Shown here piece after piece: positions 701 to 34,958 of a DNA stretch of 64,000 nt. The translations under genes and the position numbers were made by a program. The stretch comes from an uncultured Alphaproteobacteria bacterium (GTDB lineage Bacteria; Pseudomonadota; Alphaproteobacteria; Rhizobiales; Xanthobacteraceae): assembly GCA_963725495.1 (NCBI GenBank), contig CAVRYM010000005.1:723617-787616 (forward strand), written 5' to 3'. The notes below the pieces were generated by a model, which did not search any database, was not told the origin of the DNA, and worked only from the letters and a program-made list of their open reading frames with translations. How positions within the stretch are numbered: the stretch's first letter is position 1; each line of letters opens with the position of its first letter.

Positions 701-779
701 GTAGCCCGGATGAGCGAAGCGACATCCGGGATCTGCTGTCCTGCGCAACCCCGCATGTCGCTTCGCTCATGCGGGCTAC
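701..779. repeat. REP-type palindromic element gtagcccggatgagcgaagcg...cgcttcgctcatgcgggctac, copy 1
   Basis: Long inverted repeat. A second copy lies at 32211-32279. Confidence 0.8.
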
Positions 780-2947: not shown

Positions 2948-3235
2948 CTATTTCACGAAATCATTGGAGCGCAATACCAAAACCCGGCCCGGCCGCGCGT
3001 GCTCATCGTGGAATTTGCTTGATGCCCGCTGTTCGATGACGTCGCGCAAGCGCAAGAACTGCTCGATGCGCTGCTCCGCCTTCACGCCGCGCGCGTGCTC
3101 GATATCGTCCATCGCGGTGGTGCTGATCGCGCAAACCACGATCGTGTCCTGATCGCGCATCGTGAAGTCGATGACCATCCGGTCGAAATCGTAGCCTTGC
3201 ACCTCGCCTCGCAGCAGCGGCATTGAATGCTCCAT
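2948..3235 (-). CDS. DUF1488 family protein
   Basis: 95-aa ORF with the pattern ...FTMRDQDTIVVCAISTTAMDD... Confidence 0.55.
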   Translation of the reverse strand: MEHSMPLLRGEVQGYDFDRMVIDFTMRDQDTIVVCAISTTAMDDIEHARGVKAEQRIEQFLRLRDVIEQRASSKFHDEHARPGRVLVLRSNDFVK

Positions 3236-3277: not shown

Positions 3278-3547
3278 TCAGCGGTCGCGCCCTTCCTTGG
3301 CTTGTCCGTCCAAAAACTCCGACAAGGTGCCGTTGTCTTTTTTCTTGGCTTTTCGTTTCGGCGCGGCCTGCGGCGGCGGAGCGGCGGCGTCGCGCGCGAG
3401 GCGCAGCGCCTTGAGCCGCTCGGTCTTCGCGCGCGTCGCGGCAGCTTCGTTCTCGTAATCCGACGTCGCCTTTTTGGCGTCGTTGGCGCGCTGCAATTTC
3501 GCGAATTCCGCGCTGGCGTTGTATTTATTGGATTTCTCGGTCATCAA
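3278..3547 (-). CDS. Small conserved Ala/Lys-rich hypothetical protein
   Basis: 89-aa ORF with coding-like codon usage: KYNASAEFAKLQRANDAKKATSDYENEAAATRAKTERLKALRLARD. Confidence 0.55.
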   Translation of the reverse strand: MMTEKSNKYNASAEFAKLQRANDAKKATSDYENEAAATRAKTERLKALRLARDAAAPPPQAAPKRKAKKKDNGTLSEFLDGQAKEGRDR

Positions 3548-3761
3548 AGTCCTTTTTGAGGGTGTCGATAAAGGTTCCTCATCAGCATAGCAGACTGCGG
3601 CCGGAATCGGCGGAAAATCGGCTGCCCGCCGGCCGGTCGATCGATGGGCAGCGAGCGTCGGATTGGGTCCGCACGACGCAGGCCAATGACAAGCCCCGCG
3701 CTGTGCCCGTGCGCTCTGATCGGCGATGGCATGCGCGTCGGCTGCGCCGAGCCCGTCGTCG

Positions 3762-3791
3762 GGCCGGCCACTTCGGGCCGGACCCGTTGGC
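3762..3791. repeat. Short GC-rich repeat ggccggccacttcgggccggacccgttggc, copy 2
   Basis: Matches 2427-2456. Confidence 0.6.
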
Positions 3792-3909
3792 TCGCAACGA
3801 TGCTCCTCACCCGGCTCAGTCTCGCTCCGCTCGACAGCGCCGGCCTGGATTTAACGCGGGGCCGGTAGATGGTTGAGGCCGTGCCAAACCCATCGTTTCC
3901 TTCGCCGCC

Positions 3910-4608
3910 CTAAGGCCGCGCAACGCCCGCGGCCAGAGCGTCTTTCACCATCTCAATCCCGTAGTTTTGCGCCGCCTGGCGGACCAGCAGATATTGCAAA
4001 AACAATCCGCCGCAATAGAGCGCCCAATGTGTCCACGGCGCGATCACGAAGAAGCCAGCGGCGCCGAGCGCGATCAGCATGGCAAAGCTGATGACCGCAT
4101 AATCGCGCGTAAACAGGAAATTGCGGTGCGCCTGCTGCACGGACGGCATGTCCTGCACCGGAAAGTACACCTGCTTATACCAGTGAGCGTTCTGTTCCTT
4201 GGGGTTCTTCTTCATTGCCGCCGTGACGTGGAATTTCTTGTGGACTTCTTCTTCGGTAAAGCGGTCGTCGTCTTTGGCGTAGACCGTAAACGCTCGCGAC
4301 CCGGGAAGCGGGTGCTTCCAATGCGAGATAAAAACCAGCCGGTCTTTGGTCGTTGCGCTGAACAGCCCGCTGACGACGCGAATCATCGCCAGGCCGACGC
4401 CGGCGGGCAGCAGGAACGCCCAGGCTGTCGCGAGCTCGGATAACGGCTTGGGGTCAATGGCTGCCACCGCCCCAAAGGCAATCAAATTGAACGCGGTGAT
4501 TGCCAGCAGGCCGGGCCAATTCTGCTCGATGAGTGGCTGGGAGCCTTCATTTGCTGGCATGGCTTGCCCGGTCGGCGCAGATAGCGGGATGCTGCGCCGA
4601 TCATGCAA
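3910..4608 (-). CDS. Hypothetical membrane protein (2 N-terminal and 2 C-terminal TM helices around a soluble Lys/His-rich insert)
   Basis: 232-aa ORF with clear hydrophobic segments. No family recognised. Confidence 0.5.
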   Translation of the reverse strand: MHDRRSIPLSAPTGQAMPANEGSQPLIEQNWPGLLAITAFNLIAFGAVAAIDPKPLSELATAWAFLLPAGVGLAMIRVVSGLFSATTKDRLVFISHWKHPLPGSRAFTVYAKDDDRFTEEEVHKKFHVTAAMKKNPKEQNAHWYKQVYFPVQDMPSVQQAHRNFLFTRDYAVISFAMLIALGAAGFFVIAPWTHWALYCGGLFLQYLLVRQAAQNYGIEMVKDALAAGVARP

Positions 4609-4674
4609 GGCATGGTTGATAAAGGCAACCCCGCGGGTCGGACGGCTTCGCCGCGCTCAGCCACCCTGCAAAAT

Positions 4675-30284: not shown

Positions 30285-32203
30285 ATGGACGCCCGTTCGA
30301 GCCGCTATCACGAGGTTTACGCGCGCTGGCAGCGCGACCCGACCGGCTTTTGGGGCGAGGCGGCCGAAGCGATCGACTGGTTCGAAAAGCCCAAGACGGT
30401 GTTCGATCCCAAGGCCGGCATTTACGGCCGCTGGTTTGTCGGCGGCGTCTGCAACACCTGCTTTAATGCCGTGGACCGTCACGTCGATGCCGGCCGCGGC
30501 GAGCAGGCGGCGATCATCTACGATTCCCCGCTCGCCGGGCAAAAGCGCACCATCACCTATCATCGCCTGCTCACCGAGACGCAGGTGCTCGGCGGCATGC
30601 TGCGCGATCTCGGCGTCGGCAAGGGCGACCGCGTCATCCTCTACATGCCGATGGTGCCGGAGGCGGTCATCGGCATGCTCGCCTGCGCGCGCATCGGCGC
30701 CATTCATTCCGTCGTGTTCGGCGGCTTCGCGCCGCGCGAACTCGCCACCCGCATCGATGATGCCACGCCGAAAGTCATTCTGTCGGCGAGCTGCGGCATC
30801 GAGCCCGGCCGCGTCGTCGCCTATAAGCCGCTGCTCGACGAGGCGATTGCGCTCTCGGCGCACAAGCCGGATGCCTGCCTGATCCTGCAGCGGCCGCAGT
30901 TGCAAGCCGCGCTGATCGAAGGCCGCGACCGCGACTGGGCGGCGATGCGCGATTACGCGCTCATTCATGCCCGTTCGGCGTGGGACTGCGTGCCGGTCGA
31001 GGCGACCGATCCGCTCTACATTCTCTATACGTCGGGCACGACCGGGCGGCCAAAGGGCGTGGTGCGCGACAATGGCGGCCACATGGTCGCGCTCAAATGG
31101 TCGATGAAAAATCTCTATGGCGTCGAGCCCGGCGAAGTGTATTGGGCGGCGTCCGATGTCGGCTGGGTAGTCGGCCACTCCTACATCGTCTACGCGCCGC
31201 TCCTGCACGGCTGCACCTCGATCCTCTACGAGGGTAAGCCGGTCGGCACGCCCGACGCCGGCGCGTTCTGGCGGGTGATCGCCGAGCACGGCTGCGCCGC
31301 CATGTTCACCGCGCCGACCGCATTCCGCGCCATCAAGAAGGAAGACCCGCAAGGCAGGTTTTTTGCGCAATACGACCTGAAAAAATTCCGCACGCTGTTT
31401 CTCGCCGGCGAGCGCGCCGACCCGGATACGGTGCAGTGGGCTGAGAGTTTGCTAAAAATTCCCGTGCTCGATCATTGGTGGCAGACCGAGACCGGCTGGT
31501 GCATCGCCGGCAATCCGGTCGGGCTCGGCACGCTGCCGGTCAAATACGGCTCGGCGACGGTGCCGATGCCGGGCTACGACGTGCGCGTCGTCGACGAGGC
31601 GTGCAAGGAAGTGGCGGCCAACACGATGGGCTCGATCGTGGTCAAGCTGCCGCTGCCGCCGTCGTGCCTGCCGACGCTGTGGCAGGCGGACGAGCGCATG
31701 CGCGAAAGTTATCTCGACGAATTTCCCGGCTACTACAAAACCGCCGACGCCGGCTTCAAGGACGACGACGGCTACGTCTTCGTCATGGGCCGCACCGACG
31801 ACATCATCAATGTCGCCGGCCACCGGCTCTCGACCGGCGGCATGGAGGAAGTGCTGGCCGCCCATCCCGCCGTCGCCGAATGCGCCGTGCTCGGCATCAA
31901 GGACGAGCTCAAGGGCGAAGTGCCGTGCGGCTTCATCGTGCTCAAGAGCGGCGTCAACCGCCCGCCGGCCGACATCGAGAAAGAGTGCATCGCGCTCATC
32001 CGCGAAAAGATCGGCCCAGTCGCCTCCTTCCGCCTCGCCATCACGGTGGCGCGGTTGCCGAAAACGCGTTCCGGCAAGATTTTACGCGGCACGATCAAAA
32101 AAATCGCCGACGGCGAGCAGTGGCGATGCCGGCGACCATCGACGATCCGGCGGTTCTCGATGAGATCGGGAGTGCGTTGAAGGGGAAGGGCGTGGGGGCG
32201 TAA
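30285..32203 (+). pseudogene. prpE: Propionate--CoA ligase (PrpE-like acyl-CoA synthetase) with a -1 frameshift near 32123
   Basis: YTSGTTGRPKG and the N-terminus YHEVYARWQRDPTGFWGEAAEAIDW. The conserved tail MPATIDDPAVLDEIGSALKGKGVGA-stop lies in the frame of ORF 31475-32203. A G appears to be missing from tgg(g)cgatg. Confidence 0.8.
32177..32203 (+). repeat. R1: functional 3' end of prpE (ttgaaggggaagggcgtgggggcgtaa, encoding LKGKGVGA-stop)
   Basis: First of three direct copies; see R2 and R3. Confidence 0.85.
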
Positions 32204-32210
32204 GGCGAAT

Positions 32211-32279
32211 GTAGCCCGGATGAGCGAAGCGAAATCCGGGAACGGCTCTCCCGCATATCGCTGCGCTCATGCGGGCTAC
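32211..32279. repeat. REP-type palindromic element gtagcccggatgagcgaagcg..., copy 2
   Basis: Matches 701-779. Lies between R1 and R2. Confidence 0.8.
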
Positions 32280-32285
32280 TTGCTA

Positions 32286-32312
32286 CTGAAAGGGAAGGGT
32301 GTGGGGGCATAG
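32286..32312 (+). repeat. R2: duplicate of the prpE 3' end (ctgaaagggaagggtgtgggggcatag, also encoding LKGKGVGA-stop)
   Basis: Five differences from R1. All are synonymous or stop-to-stop. Confidence 0.85.
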
Positions 32313-32314
32313 CG

Positions 32315-32770
32315 ATGTACGACGCATCCAAGTTGACGACGCCTGAAGGCTGTCGCACCGTTATGCAGAGAGCGCGCGATAGGAATTTGCCTGACGTTTA
32401 CAACGCGGCATTCAAGCGATTTTGTGAATTGGTCGGAACAGCAAATGATGATCCCTCTGATCCGCTGGTCAGCGACTTTTACAAGACACTCGCTGCCTAC
32501 GAGCAATTGCTCACGGAGAAGAACGGTCGGACTACACTAGCGTCTCGGACGCGGCAGAAGATTGATAACAAGGGTATTCATGAAAGCTTGATCGAGTGGA
32601 CTTGGGGTAAGATTGAAACAAATGGCTTCAAGTTGCTCGTAGAAAAGGGCTTATCCGAGTATACTGGGGAGTATCTCGTAGTTCGTTACGCCGATCGATT
32701 TCCCGACGACATAGTGACATTGGCGAAGCGTCGTCTAGCTGCTCATGGAATCAAGGCTCCAGAACAGTAG
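32315..32770 (+). CDS. Hypothetical protein on a low-GC single-gene insert
   Basis: 151-aa ORF starting 2 nt after the R2 stop codon. Visibly AT-richer than its surroundings. Confidence 0.6.
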   Translation: MYDASKLTTPEGCRTVMQRARDRNLPDVYNAAFKRFCELVGTANDDPSDPLVSDFYKTLAAYEQLLTEKNGRTTLASRTRQKIDNKGIHESLIEWTWGKIETNGFKLLVEKGLSEYTGEYLVVRYADRFPDDIVTLAKRRLAAHGIKAPEQ

Positions 32771-32807
32771 CAATTCGTTACGGCCTAGGCGACTAAGCGC
32801 TTTAACT

Positions 32808-32850
32808 TCGGGAGTACGCGGCGCTGAAAGGGAAGAGGGTCGGAGGTTAA
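32808..32850 (+). repeat. R3: degenerate third copy of the prpE 3' end (…tcgggagtacgcggcgctgaaagggaagagggtcggaggttaa)
   Basis: Core 32824-32850 encodes LKGKRVGG-stop. Similarity to prpE extends upstream (tcgggagt(g/a)cg). Confidence 0.7.
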
Positions 32851-32853
32851 CTC

Positions 32854-32873
32854 GAGAGCGCGGCACCGCTCTC
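32854..32873 (+). terminator. Hairpin gagagcg-cggcac-cgctctc after R3, possibly the original prpE terminator
   Basis: 7-bp GC-rich stem. The following T-tract is weak. Confidence 0.35.
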
Positions 32874-32896: not shown

Positions 32897-33877
32897 ATGC
32901 GCCTCGCTGGAAGCTGGCTCGTCATCGGCTTGGTCATGTGCTGCGCGCCAGCGGGCGCGCAGACTCCCGCGAGTCCACCTGCGGATGAGGCAAAACCGGT
33001 CGTAACAACCGCGACGCCGGCGCCAGCCGAAACGACGCCCGCCAAGCCGGCTGAAGATAAAAAAACGGACGACAAGCAAGCGCCCGCCAGCCCGCCCACC
33101 GCCGACGATATCTGCCGCACGGTCGAGCAGGCGGCGGCGGAGAACGGGCTGCCGGTTGAGTTCTTCGCCCGCGTCATCTGGCAGGAGAGCCGCTTCAACG
33201 CGCAAGCGGTGAGCCGCAAAGGCGCGCAGGGCATCGCGCAATTCATGCCGGCGACGGCGGACTTCCGCGGGCTCGCCAATCCGTTCGATCCGATCGCGGC
33301 GATCCGCGAGGCGGCGAGCTATCTGGGCGATCTGAAAAAGCAATTCGGCAATCTCGGCCTCGCCGCTGCCGGCTACAATGCCGGGCCCGCACGCGTGAGT
33401 GCCTGGCTCGGCGGCAGGCGCCCGCTGCCGGCCGAGACGCGCAACTACGTCGCCATCATCACCGGCTGGACCGCCGACGAGTGGGCCTTGCCGTCACCGC
33501 CGGATACGGCGGACACGACGATCCCGCAGGGCATTCCGTGCACCCGGCTCGCCAATCTGATCCTGGCCAAGCCGCCCGAGCAAAAACGCATCGCCGCCTA
33601 CGTACCGAAATGGGGCGCGCAGCTGACCGCCAGTTTGTCCGAGGCCGGCGCCTGGGCGGACTATCGCCGGCTGCAGAAGCGCTATCCGGCGCTGATCGGC
33701 GACAGCGAACCGATCGTACTGCGCGGCCGCATCCCCGGCATGGGCCCCGCCCAGCGCTACATCATCCGCATCGCCAACGACGATTACGCGACGCTTGCCA
33801 AGCTATGCAACAAGCTCGTCATCGCCGGCGGCGCGTGCGTAATGATGCGCAATGAGCGCGCGGCAAGGGTCGATTGA
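32897..33877 (+). CDS. Lytic transglycosylase (SLT domain) protein with a Pro/Ala-rich linker
   Basis: Signal peptide. QESRFNAQAVSRKGAQGIAQFMP and AGYNAGP motifs. Confidence 0.85.
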   Translation: MRLAGSWLVIGLVMCCAPAGAQTPASPPADEAKPVVTTATPAPAETTPAKPAEDKKTDDKQAPASPPTADDICRTVEQAAAENGLPVEFFARVIWQESRFNAQAVSRKGAQGIAQFMPATADFRGLANPFDPIAAIREAASYLGDLKKQFGNLGLAAAGYNAGPARVSAWLGGRRPLPAETRNYVAIITGWTADEWALPSPPDTADTTIPQGIPCTRLANLILAKPPEQKRIAAYVPKWGAQLTASLSEAGAWADYRRLQKRYPALIGDSEPIVLRGRIPGMGPAQRYIIRIANDDYATLAKLCNKLVIAGGACVMMRNERAARVD

Positions 33878-33933
33878 AAGCCTTGACATGCCGGCTCGTC
33901 CGCCGGCGCTGTGGACGAACTTTAGGTTTCCCC

Positions 33934-34377
33934 ATGCTATATAATTGTTATCTCCGAAAGGGCATTGTCTATGTGCCCACGATCGGCAAACGAGGCGGCG
34001 CCTATGTCGTTATGGAGCCCGTAGCTGTTGTTCCCGCCAAGAGTACCGAGGATCTGCGATGCGCATTCGAAGAGGCAATTGGCAGAGGAAACGCGGCGCT
34101 CCCGCTGCTCAAGGACGGACGACCGCCGCCAGTGATGCTGAAATACACGAAAACCAAATCGTGGCCTGACTTCGTTCGCGACACGCTAACCTGGAATATT
34201 GAAATAATCGACGACCAATACCAAATTGTTGGCCATCGACTGCGCCCGGATGGAGGATGGGCGGAAGATCACGATCACAAAATTAAATTTCCTCTCGGAA
34301 CCGCACCCGATACGGTGATCAACCGCATGATCGCGGTCCTGCAAGAGGCCGCGGAGCAGCAGGTAATAAAAGACTAA
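33934..34377 (+). CDS. Hypothetical protein, paralog A of a tandem pair
   Basis: MLYNCYLRKGIVYVPTIGKRGGAYVVMEPVAVVP... is roughly 45 percent identical by eye to 34524-34958. Lower GC than background. Confidence 0.6.
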   Translation: MLYNCYLRKGIVYVPTIGKRGGAYVVMEPVAVVPAKSTEDLRCAFEEAIGRGNAALPLLKDGRPPPVMLKYTKTKSWPDFVRDTLTWNIEIIDDQYQIVGHRLRPDGGWAEDHDHKIKFPLGTAPDTVINRMIAVLQEAAEQQVIKD

Positions 34378-34523: not shown

Positions 34524-34958
34524 ATGCTCCACAACTGTTATCTCAGAAGCTCGTTCGTTTACGTGCCGACCGTCGGTAGACGCGGAGGCGCCTACACCGA
34601 TATTGAGCCTGTCGCCGTCGTTCCGCTGGCGAATACGGACGGGCTGCGCCGGGCGCTTCTTGAGGCGATTGGCAGAGGAAATGTCCCTGTCCCGCTCCTA
34701 AAAGGTCAGCATCCTCCGCCTGTCGTGCTTAAATACGCCGGCGTAAAAAGCTGGTCGGCTTTCGCCCGCAATGCATCGAGCTGGAGCATCAAAGAGAAAA
34801 GTGGCTCATATCAGATTGTGGGGTATCGAACTCACTCGGATGGCTACTACTGGGTCGAAGATTCAAACCAGAAAATCGAATTTCCGCTAGGAACTGTCGT
34901 CGATGCGGTCGTCGACCGCTTGATTGCGATCCTGCAGAACGCAGCGTCCCAGCAGTGA
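34524..34958 (+). CDS. Hypothetical protein, paralog B of a tandem pair
   Basis: MLHNCYLRSSFVYVPTVGRRGGAYTDIEPVAVVP... Confidence 0.6.
   Translation: MLHNCYLRSSFVYVPTVGRRGGAYTDIEPVAVVPLANTDGLRRALLEAIGRGNVPVPLLKGQHPPPVVLKYAGVKSWSAFARNASSWSIKEKSGSYQIVGYRTHSDGYYWVEDSNQKIEFPLGTVVDAVVDRLIAILQNAASQQ

What the first reader, a model, noticed from the sequence alone, without database searches (positions are those of the whole stretch)
32177..32873. Three copies of the prpE 3' coding end bracket a REP and a low-GC ORF, an att-like serial insertion signature
Seen directly: the last 27 nt of prpE (R1, 32177-32203, LKGKGVGA-stop) recur at 32286-32312 (R2) and, degenerate, at 32824-32850 (R3, LKGKRVGG-stop). 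R3 similarity to prpE extends upstream to about 32808. R2 differs from R1 at 5 positions (TTG/CTG, AAG/AAA, GGC/GGT, GCG/GCA, TAA/TAG). All are synonymous or stop-to-stop, so R2 has evolved as coding sequence rather than being a chance match. R1-R2 encloses a 69-nt REP. R2-R3 encloses one AT-richer ORF (32315-32770) that starts 2 nt after the R2 stop. A terminator-like hairpin follows only R3. Inference: DNA has been inserted repeatedly into the 3' end of prpE by a mechanism that regenerates the gene end, as integrative elements do at tRNA or gene 3' ends, leaving displaced older ends (R2, R3). No integrase lies in the window, so the mobilising function is unknown or acts in trans. A one-gene cassette bounded by coding-end repeats is not a standard element type.
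Basis: partly seen in the sequence, partly recalled or inferred. Interest (0 to 1): 0.72.

Follow-up and report, generated by a model that had tools for sequence, protein, structure and literature searches.

The report
Displaced gene ends beside a variable islet
Three copies of the last 27 bases of an acyl-CoA synthetase gene (prpE-like) are real, and they look like scars left when versions of this locus from related strains recombined and pushed older gene ends downstream, a known kind of process and not a new mobile element.

Summary
R1 (32177-32203), R2 (32286-32312) and R3 (32824-32850) are the only such 27-mers in the 64 kb. R1 and R2 differ at 5 sites, all synonymous or stop-to-stop (P about 5e-4 under random substitution).

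The att-like serial-insertion reading is only partly supported. The 151-aa ORF is not a cassette bounded by prpE ends. In at least 17 related metagenome contigs it follows the prpE stop directly. There it is the first gene of a small variable islet (with or without HEPN_AbiU2 and BrnA/BrnT) lying between prpE and an SLT transglycosylase gene. No flanking repeats and no recombinase are present.

Empty sites (prpE then SLT) and other cargos exist in relatives. Against its closest relative (L165), the window carries a 109-nt insertion (R1 + REP) exactly 27 nt before the stop. The R1-REP, prpE-ORF and prpE-SLT arrangements each occur on their own in relatives. A second contig (L120) independently shows an intact prpE, an 840-nt insert, a 128-nt old prpE end, and then the ORF.

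Remnant lengths vary (27, about 34, 128 nt). The best explanation is 3'-end displacement by recombination between locus variants: one homologous anchor plus one illegitimate junction. This is as proposed for rhs tips and T6SS effector modules. Interest is modest.

The parts
30285..32203 (+). prpE-like acyl-CoA (propionate/acetate) synthetase gene. As assembled it has a 1-nt deletion at 32124-32125, so the ORF from 30285 stops at 32180 while the native end is read in the frame ending at 32203.
   Evidence: NCBIfam propionate--CoA ligase 714 bits, below the equivalog cut-off of 955. ORF list. Alignments with L016 and L165 show the missing base.
32177..32203 (+). R1: the current prpE end (LKGKGVGA-stop). 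It is the left part of the 109-nt segment (32177-32285) that is absent from the closest relative, L165.
   Evidence: The 27-mer is identical to the prpE ends of L168-L170 and matches L016 at 24/27.
32211..32279 (.). REP-type imperfect palindrome (31-nt arms, 87% complementary), a member of a dispersed family.
   Evidence: I1. A second copy lies at 701-779. L016 has a homologous REP in the same place after its prpE stop.
32286..32312 (+). R2: the displaced 27-nt end of an older prpE allele, still joined to the ORF as in relatives (stop, 2 nt, ATG). It probably carries the ORF's ribosome-binding site (GGGGG at -12 to -8; this is inference).
   Evidence: It matches the L165 prpE end at 22/27 and shares its CTG and TAG.
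32315..32770 (+). 151-aa ORF of an uncharacterised all-helical family. GC is about 0.50. In relatives it is the first gene of the variable islet between prpE and SLT.
   Evidence: - Homologs: 384 at 68-86% identity; 620 cluster representatives with E of 1e-3 or better.
- No Pfam, NCBIfam, PADLOC or PHROG hit.
- AF2 pLDDT 92.8, with no PDB fold match.
- Contexts.
32817..32850 (+). R3: a decayed remnant of a still older prpE end (LKGKRVGG-stop; core 32824-32850). It sits where the real prpE stop sits in empty-site relatives.
   Evidence: The R3-to-SLT spacer aligns with the prpE-end-to-SLT spacer of L004 and L005.
32854..32873 (+). Hairpin GAGAGCG-cggcac-CGCTCTC in the native spacer upstream of SLT. 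The GGCACC motif is conserved in L004, L005 and L165.
   Evidence: Read. Alignments. Not called as a terminator by the scan.
32897..33877 (+). SLT-domain lytic transglycosylase gene, the conserved right flank of the variable islet.
   Evidence: Pfam SLT 2.4e-23. Orthologs follow prpE or the islet in L004, L005, L006, L041, L157-L165.

Best explanation
The spacer between the conserved prpE-like gene and the SLT gene is a variable islet in this group of uncultured Xanthobacteraceae. It can be empty, hold ORF151 alone, hold ORF151 with BrnTA and sometimes AbiU2, or hold other genes.

The three prpE ends are scars of successive recombination between different versions of this locus from related strains. 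In each event, incoming DNA paired through a long homologous anchor (prpE on one side or SLT on the other). The other junction was made illegitimately, close to where homology ends, which is the prpE stop codon. This is homology-facilitated illegitimate recombination. A single crossover with a small circular intermediate is the alternative sub-mechanism. Each event put a complete prpE end plus its own downstream DNA in front of a short stub of the previous prpE end.

Inferred order of events:
1. Native state: prpE(R3), spacer, SLT.
2. A prpE(R2)-ORF151 version displaced R3.
3. A prpE(R1)-REP version displaced R2.

R2 probably survives because it holds the ORF's translation-initiation region.

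Shown: the architecture, the allele-like divergence, the existence of each component arrangement in relatives, and an independent second case. Inferred: the enzymology, the direction of transfer and the order of events.
For: 1. R1 and R2 diverged as coding sequence. All 5 differences are silent (P about 5e-4). R2 versus R3 has 5 of 7 differences at third positions. They are therefore alleles from separate genomes and not an in-place duplication.
2. Each building block exists alone in relatives:
   - prpE(LKGKGVGA-stop)-REP in L016
   - prpE-ORF151-spacer-SLT in L165
   - prpE-spacer-SLT in L004 and L005, whose spacer aligns with the R3-SLT spacer
3. Against L165 (94% identity over the last 90 aa of prpE), the window differs by a clean 109-nt insertion, 32177-32285, exactly 27 nt before the stop.
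4. R1 is identical to the prpE ends of L168-L170, and R2 is closest to L165.
5. An independent case exists on an Illumina JGI contig, L120: intact prpE at 115-2031, an 840-nt insert, a 128-nt prpE remnant at 2871-2998 (8 synonymous and 9 non-synonymous codon differences), then the ORF homolog.
6. Remnant lengths vary (27, about 34, 128 nt), as expected for illegitimate junctions.
7. No recombinase is found in the islet in the window or in 17 related contigs.
8. The same model has been published for T6SS effector-immunity arrays (PMC5361080) and for rhs C-terminal displacement (PMC2935791).
Against: - No donor or immediate precursor genome was found, so no junction microhomology or recombination tract could be shown.
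- A sliding-window comparison of prpE with relatives showed no mosaic signal, because the relatives differ by 10-20% at the nucleotide level.
- All three remnants lie within 128 nt of the stop. This fits joining at the homology border, but it would also fit a targeted mechanism.
- ORF151 abuts the prpE stop in up to three separate clades of its NJ tree, which carries no support values. That could hint at site preference.
- L165, the closest relative, lacks R3. R3 was therefore either lost there or arose separately.
- The window comes from an assembly with a frameshift in prpE, so assembly quality at this spot is unverified.
Confidence: 0.57

Rival explanations
1. Site-specific integration. Small elements integrate into an att site in the last codons of prpE and bring a replacement gene end, as islands do at tRNA or gene 3' ends. 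The recombinase acts in trans.
For: - Direct repeats of the gene end bracket the inserted DNA.
- Empty sites and varied cargo occur at the same place.
- A second contig, L120, shows a regenerated prpE end.
- ORF151 lies 0-15 nt after the prpE stop in clades that are only 59-74% identical to each other.
Against: - Repeat lengths differ (27, about 34, 128 nt).
- The repeats were never identical copies; their differences are allele-like.
- The R1-R2 'element' is only 82 nt of REP.
- 17 related ORF151 islets have no right-hand prpE remnant and no recombinase.
- There is no tRNA in the window.
- ORF151 homologs elsewhere have no flanking repeats.
- prpE and ORF151 co-diverge.
Confidence: 0.12
2. 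Single homologous crossover with small circular intermediates that each carry a short prpE 3' fragment plus cargo. This is the Campbell-type model proposed for rhs tip displacement.
For: - It predicts exactly this layout: new end, cargo, short core fragment, old downstream DNA (PMC2935791 abstract).
- The 128-nt remnant in L120 is long enough for RecA-dependent pairing.
Against: - For R1/R2 the circle would be only 109 nt.
- The shared 27 nt has 5 mismatches, and its longest perfect run is 8 nt (read from the sequences). That is too short for RecA-dependent crossover (established knowledge).
- No such circles are known for this locus.
Confidence: 0.12
3. Assembly artefact. Two co-occurring strain variants (prpE-REP and prpE-ORF151) were mis-joined in a long-read metagenome assembly, creating R1-REP-R2.
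For: - prpE carries a 1-nt frameshift in the window.
- The related long-read contig L003 has prpE broken into three ORFs. Consensus quality is therefore imperfect.
Against: - A mis-join in shared sequence produces a switch, not a 27-nt duplication.
- L120, from a different project and assembler, shows the same architecture.
- R3 cannot be explained this way.
Confidence: 0.07
4. Local tandem duplication of the prpE end, followed by REP insertion and drift.
For: REP elements are mobile and present elsewhere in the window.
Against: - Five of five R1/R2 differences are silent (P about 5e-4). A dead copy would not drift that way.
- R1 and R2 each match distinct alleles seen in other contigs.
Confidence: 0.04

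Closest known systems
C-terminal (3'-end) displacement in rhs, CDI and T6SS effector loci (Jackson et al. 2009, PMC2935791; Kirchberger et al. 2017, PMC5361080)
   Same: A laterally acquired new 3' end plus its cargo is placed in front of the old 3' end. The old end is shifted downstream and left as an orphan stub. Events can be serial, giving arrays. The conserved upstream gene body serves as the homology anchor, and no integrase is involved.
   Different: - Here the gene is a metabolic acyl-CoA synthetase, not a polymorphic toxin.
- The displaced pieces are tiny (27-128 nt) and encode the same peptide, not alternative toxin tips.
- Nothing suggests selection for new gene ends. The scars look like by-products of turnover of the neighbouring islet.
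Homology-facilitated illegitimate recombination (de Vries & Wackernagel 2002; Prudhomme et al. 2002; Meier & Wackernagel 2003, as cited in PMC5361080; also seen in E. coli conjugation, PMC3240628)
   Same: One long homologous anchor plus one illegitimate junction near the border of homology. This adds foreign DNA next to a conserved gene.
   Different: It is known from laboratory transformation and conjugation assays. Here it is only inferred from the end product. Junction microhomology and the uptake route are unknown.
Genomic islands integrated at gene 3' ends by tyrosine recombinases (att-flanked, gene end regenerated)
   Same: Direct repeats of a gene end bracket the acquired DNA, the gene stays intact, and relatives have empty sites.
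   Different: There is no integrase, repeat length is variable, the repeats diverge like alleles, and most related islets have no right-hand repeat.
Defence/toxin-antitoxin islets at hotspots between conserved core genes
   Same: In relatives, the same intergenic slot carries BrnT/BrnA and HEPN_AbiU2 (precomputed Pfam hits) or DUF4238. Content varies and some sites are empty.
   Different: The window keeps only the uncharacterised ORF151. Its role in defence is untested.

Membership tests
Site-specific integrative element at a gene 3' end | A recombinase (integrase) gene inside or next to the att-bounded segment | tested here: not met
   Between R1 and R3 there is only a REP and ORF151, which has no Pfam, NCBIfam, PADLOC or PHROG hit. 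The neighbouring ORFs from 27.6 to 36.1 kb are a 541-aa and the prpE-like synthetase, a TauE-like protein, SLT, two small paralogs and a 326-aa ORF. The 17 related islets carry only AbiU2 and BrnTA. The rest of the window was not scanned.
Site-specific integrative element at a gene 3' end | attL and attR direct repeats of a constant core length, identical at the time of insertion | tested here: not met
   Remnants measure 27, about 34 and 128 nt. The R1/R2 differences are all silent, meaning the copies are separate alleles. No right-hand repeat is present in the other ORF151-linked loci.
Site-specific integrative element at a gene 3' end | Empty target sites in related genomes | tested here: met
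   L004 and L005 have prpE, then 60-115 nt, then SLT. The spacer is homologous to the R3-SLT spacer.
3'-end displacement / homology-facilitated illegitimate recombination | A complete new gene end plus cargo lies upstream of a truncated older end in the same orientation, and the pattern can repeat | tested here: met
   R1-REP-R2-ORF151-R3 in the window. Intact prpE, 840 nt, a 128-nt remnant, then the ORF in L120.
3'-end displacement / homology-facilitated illegitimate recombination | The joined parts correspond to locus versions that exist on their own in relatives | tested here: met
   L016 has prpE-REP. L165 has prpE-ORF151-SLT. L004 and L005 have prpE-SLT.
3'-end displacement / homology-facilitated illegitimate recombination | Short microhomology at the illegitimate junction, and a donor SNP tract through the anchor | tested here: inconclusive
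   No donor or precursor sequence is available. A sliding-window identity comparison of prpE against 12 relatives showed no mosaic signal at 10-20% divergence.
REP / REPIN-type dispersed palindromic repeat | An imperfect palindrome present in several intergenic copies in the genome and in relatives | tested here: met
   Arms at 32211-32241 and 32249-32279 are 87% complementary. Further copies lie at 701-730 and 750-779, in L007 and in L016. No RAYT gene was looked for.
Propionate--CoA ligase PrpE (NCBIfam equivalog) | Score above the curated equivalog cut-off | tested here: not met
   714 bits against a cut-off of 955 (NF007815), and 675 against 827 (TIGR02316). It is best called a prpE-like or ACS-family acyl-CoA synthetase.

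The most novel reading that the evidence does not exclude
The prpE stop codon is a genuine target for an unknown integrase-less insertion process. ORF151 would then be the border or marker gene, or even the agent, of a new class of tiny islets that land directly after conserved genes and rebuild their ends. ORF151 belongs to a family with a confidently predicted but unmatched all-helical fold. Its GC stays at about 50% in every host context. It appears as a solitary gene at many unrelated loci.
Probability: 0.08. Interest if true: 0.75.

Novelty: new member of a known kind. Interest (0 to 1): 0.3.

Why it matters
This is a clear natural example of short 'fossil' gene ends recording the order in which versions of a variable islet replaced one another next to a housekeeping gene. 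It extends the 3'-end displacement pattern, known from rhs, CDI and T6SS toxin loci, to an ordinary metabolic gene in uncultured soil Xanthobacteraceae. Such stubs can be used to reconstruct islet history. They can also be mistaken for att sites.

The work also flags a sizeable uncharacterised protein family: 620 representatives of 50%-identity clusters. The family keeps company with BrnTA, AbiU2 and DUF4238 genes and has no known fold.

Tried and rejected
- **Own-end duplicates in relatives.** I scanned 80 prpE loci from species-representative genomes for a duplicate of their own last 27 nt and found none. A later scan seemed to show duplicates in Bradyrhizobium L020, L021 and L031. Reading the sequences showed these were artefacts of a mis-set stop.
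- **nhmmer.** A 45-nt prpE-end profile was too insensitive for such short targets.
- **Flanking repeats around homologs.** I searched about 45 ORF151 homologs for flanking direct repeats. Only the window stands out (z = 3.2). The three top scores were indexing artefacts on truncated contigs.
- **Mosaic test of prpE.** Uninformative at this level of divergence.
- **The 840-nt L120 insert.** Neither the insert nor its two ORFs were found in any other fetched locus.
- **ORF151 function.** There is no hit in Pfam, NCBIfam, PADLOC, PHROGs or PDB sequence (best E = 0.14), and none in a PDB fold search (best E = 1.2).
- **RNA features.** Rfam and tRNA scans of the region and window found nothing relevant.
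- **Source record.** The exact ORF151 protein is not indexed with a contig, so the source record and its close relatives could not be retrieved.
- **Integron cassette (attC).** I considered this by eye only. No convincing R''/R' core sites follow the ORF. It was not formally tested.
Full report
**1. Observation**

The three 27-mers are present as described:
- R1: 32177-32203, TTGAAGGGGAAGGGCGTGGGGGCGTAA
- R2: 32286-32312, CTGAAAGGGAAGGGTGTGGGGGCATAG
- R3: 32824-32850, CTGAAAGGGAAGAGGGTCGGAGGTTAA

The repeat finder groups them as one family (D2). A degenerate R1/R2 pattern has no chance expectation in shuffles.

R1 and R2 differ at 5 positions, and all 5 preserve LKGKGVGA plus a stop. Five random substitutions do that with P about 5e-4. 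R3 (LKGKRVGG-stop) is the only other 27-mer on either strand of the window within 8 mismatches of R1 or 7 of R2. In 1.16 Mb of fetched loci the control strand gives only 16 hits at 7 or fewer mismatches to any of 38 prpE ends. A hit inside the 126-nt spacer, in orientation and in register with a stop, is therefore not chance.

Other features check out:
- The 69-nt palindrome at 32211-32279 is real (I1) and belongs to a dispersed REP family (701-779 in the window; also in L007 and L016).
- The ORF at 32315-32770 has GC of about 0.50 against 0.65-0.68 around it.
- As assembled, prpE lacks one base at 32124-32125 (TGG CG ATG where relatives have TGG NNN ATG). This is possibly a long-read error. 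L003, another long contig, has prpE split into three ORFs.

**2. What the ORF is**

It has no match in Pfam, NCBIfam, PADLOC, PHROGs or PDB sequences. An AlphaFold model built on 32 homologs is confident (pLDDT 92.8, eight helices) but has no PDB fold match.

The family is sizeable. There are 384 hits at 68-86% identity in the word-indexed search and 620 representatives of 50%-identity clusters at E of 1e-3 or better. Members are about 48-56% GC whatever the flanking GC. Low GC is therefore a property of the family and not evidence of recent arrival.

**3. Comparative context**

*prpE loci in named genomes.* A scan of species-representative genomes with the prpE C-terminal half returned 80 loci.
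- None encodes an ORF151 homolog.
- None has a second copy of its own prpE end.
- The nearest, L004 and L005 (87% and 86% identity), have prpE followed after 60-115 nt by the SLT gene. These are empty sites.
- L006 has a 148-aa ORF in that slot, and L041 a 305-aa epimerase-like gene.

*The closest ORF151 homologs (82-88% identity).* All lie in the same slot:
- L165: prpE, ORF151, a 105-nt spacer, SLT.
- L161-L164, L166, L167, L168: prpE, ORF151, BrnA and BrnT on the opposite strand; L161, L163, L164, L166 and L167 then reach SLT or an SLT-positioned ORF. L084 shares the BrnA-type sequence directly after the ORF. L089 ends inside the ORF.
- L157-L160: prpE, ORF151, HEPN_AbiU2, BrnA, BrnT; L157-L159 then reach SLT.

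*Other prpE-linked clades.*
- A second clade (L114, L120; 59% identity) has prpE, ORF151, DUF4238.
- L003 (74% identity) has prpE, ORF151, terminator.

*Elsewhere.* About 65 other homologs lie in unrelated contexts. One example is L001, next to IS1595, H-NS, UvrD_C_2 and ArdC genes. None has flanking repeats.

Among prpE-linked loci, identity in prpE and identity in ORF151 co-vary (Spearman 0.77). In the window's clade, ORF151 is therefore a long-standing neighbour of prpE and the first gene of a small variable islet. It is not a cassette newly dropped between two prpE ends.

**4. Origin of the three ends**

*R1 and the REP.* Aligned with L165 (94% identity over the last 90 aa of prpE, 86% in ORF151), the window has one clean 109-nt insertion, 32177-32285. 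It consists of R1, 6 nt, the REP and 7 nt, and it sits exactly 27 nt before the stop of the L165-type gene.
- R1 is identical to the prpE ends of L168-L170 and 24/27 to L016.
- L016 natively has prpE(LKGKGVGA-stop) followed by a homologous REP in the same position.
- R2 shares its CTG start and TAG stop with the L165 end (22/27).

*R3.* It aligns in register with relatives' prpE ends back to about 32817. The sequence from R3 to the SLT start aligns with the prpE-end-to-SLT spacer of the empty sites L004 and L005, including a conserved GGCACC...GCGTTA motif.

The window is therefore a nested concatenation of three locus versions, each of which exists alone elsewhere: prpE(R1)-REP, then [R2]-ORF151, then [R3]-spacer-SLT.

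*A second case.* L120, an Illumina JGI contig, repeats the theme:
- intact prpE at 115-2031
- an 840-nt insert with two small ORFs
- a 128-nt prpE remnant at 2871-2998, 77-88% identical to the intact end, with a 1-nt deletion
- the ORF151 homolog (with an in-frame stop), a DUF4238 stub, and an IS110-family transposase gene

The remnant differs from the intact end at 8 synonymous and 9 non-synonymous codons. Most of the non-synonymous changes fall in the variable last eight codons. This again looks like allelic divergence.

Scanning all 171 loci plus the window with 38 prpE-end 27-mers found extra in-orientation remnants only in the window and in L120. Apparent hits in L020, L021 and L031 were artefacts.

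**5. Mechanism**

The silent-only divergence rules out an in-place duplication followed by drift. It shows that R1, R2 and R3 served as gene ends in different genomes.

Several facts argue against an att/integrase mechanism:
- The stub lengths vary (27, about 34, 128 nt).
- The R1-R2 'cargo' is tiny.
- No recombinase lies in the window's slot or in the 17 related islets.
- Other ORF151-linked loci lack a right-hand repeat.

The pattern matches 3'-end displacement. Incoming DNA from a related strain pairs through the conserved gene, prpE or on the other side SLT. The non-homologous end is then joined illegitimately near the point where homology stops, which is the prpE stop codon. A join slightly upstream of that point leaves a short stub of the resident gene end behind the new DNA.

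This is the homology-facilitated illegitimate recombination model. It has been invoked for T6SS effector-immunity arrays, where the 3' end of an old effector is 'shifted back' (PMC5361080). It is close to the C-terminal displacement model for rhs, which instead proposes circular intermediates (PMC2935791). A Campbell-type crossover is plausible for the 128-nt case. It is not plausible for the 27-nt R1/R2 pair, which has 5 mismatches and would need a 109-nt circle.

R2 contains a G-rich Shine-Dalgarno-like run 8-12 nt before the ORF's ATG. Selection for ORF expression may explain why a junction that kept these 27 nt survived (inference).

Shown: the architecture, the allele-like divergence, the component arrangements in relatives, the empty sites, and a second independent case. 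Inferred: the recombination route, the direction of transfer and the order of events. Not obtained: donor or precursor genomes, junction microhomology, or a mosaic tract in prpE (one search was uninformative).

**6. Comparison with known systems, and novelty**

The feature behaves like the displaced 3' tips of rhs, CDI and T6SS loci, but it occurs at a metabolic acyl-CoA synthetase gene. That gene scores below NCBIfam's PrpE equivalog cut-off. The stubs encode the same peptide and not new toxin tips. They look like by-products of islet turnover and not an adaptive diversification system.

The feature fails two defining tests for a site-specific integrative element (recombinase; constant identical att core) and passes one (empty sites). 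I rate it a new member of a known kind.

The more exotic reading is a dedicated, integrase-less mechanism aimed at the prpE stop, with ORF151 as its marker or agent. It is not excluded, because ORF151 abuts prpE in up to three clades of an unsupported NJ tree. I give it about 8%.

**7. Verdict**

- Observation: confirmed.
Displaced older ends, serial events, empty sites and variable cargo are all present. An att-like element or cassette is not.
- Best explanation: recombinational 3'-end displacement at a variable defence/toxin-antitoxin islet between prpE and SLT, confidence about 0.57.
- Interest: 0.3.

Noticed in passing
window 32117-32128: prpE has a 1-nt deletion (TGG CG ATG where L016 and L165 have TGG CAG/ACC ATG). 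The ORF from 30285 therefore ends at 32180, and the last 28 codons, including R1, are out of frame. It is either a real pseudogenising frameshift or a long-read consensus error.
   Followed up: partly
window 33874-34377 and 34524-34958: Two tandem paralogous ORFs (167 and 144 aa; GC 0.51-0.58) lie just after SLT. They have no Pfam, NCBIfam, PADLOC or PHROG hit. 89 hypothetical homologs of about 145 aa exist in metagenomes. Function is unknown.
   Followed up: partly
window 701-779: A second copy of the same REP palindrome family (two inverted 30-mers with 1 and 3 mismatches to the 32211 arm).
   Followed up: no
L157 4494-5759; L161 4466-5003; L163 809-1346: In close relatives the prpE-SLT slot also holds a BrnT/BrnA toxin-antitoxin pair, and in L157-L160 a HEPN_AbiU2 gene as well. 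All are on the opposite strand to ORF151. The slot behaves as a small defence/TA hotspot.
   Followed up: partly
L120 3001-4650: The ORF151 homolog has an in-frame stop at 3088-3090. The DUF4238 gene that follows it in L114 is cut down to a stub (3492-3639) by an IS110-family transposase gene (3652-4650, minus strand).
   Followed up: partly
L003 5455-5500: The last 12 nt of the ORF151 homolog (caagcgaggcat) are repeated 9 nt downstream of its stop, before a strong terminator hairpin. This is a small local duplication of the ORF end.
   Followed up: no
L001 2577-9767: A 70%-identical ORF151 homolog sits in a mobile-element-like region with IS1595 transposase, H-NS, a 905-aa UvrD_C_2 helicase and ArdC. 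This shows the family also travels on mobile DNA.
   Followed up: no
L133, L136, L144, L148, L151-L154 (about 1.2-3 kb downstream of the match): Distant ORF151 homologs (45-49% identity) repeatedly have an AMP-binding acyl-CoA synthetase (about 25% identical to prpE) on the opposite strand downstream. This may be a separate conserved context in another taxon.
   Followed up: no
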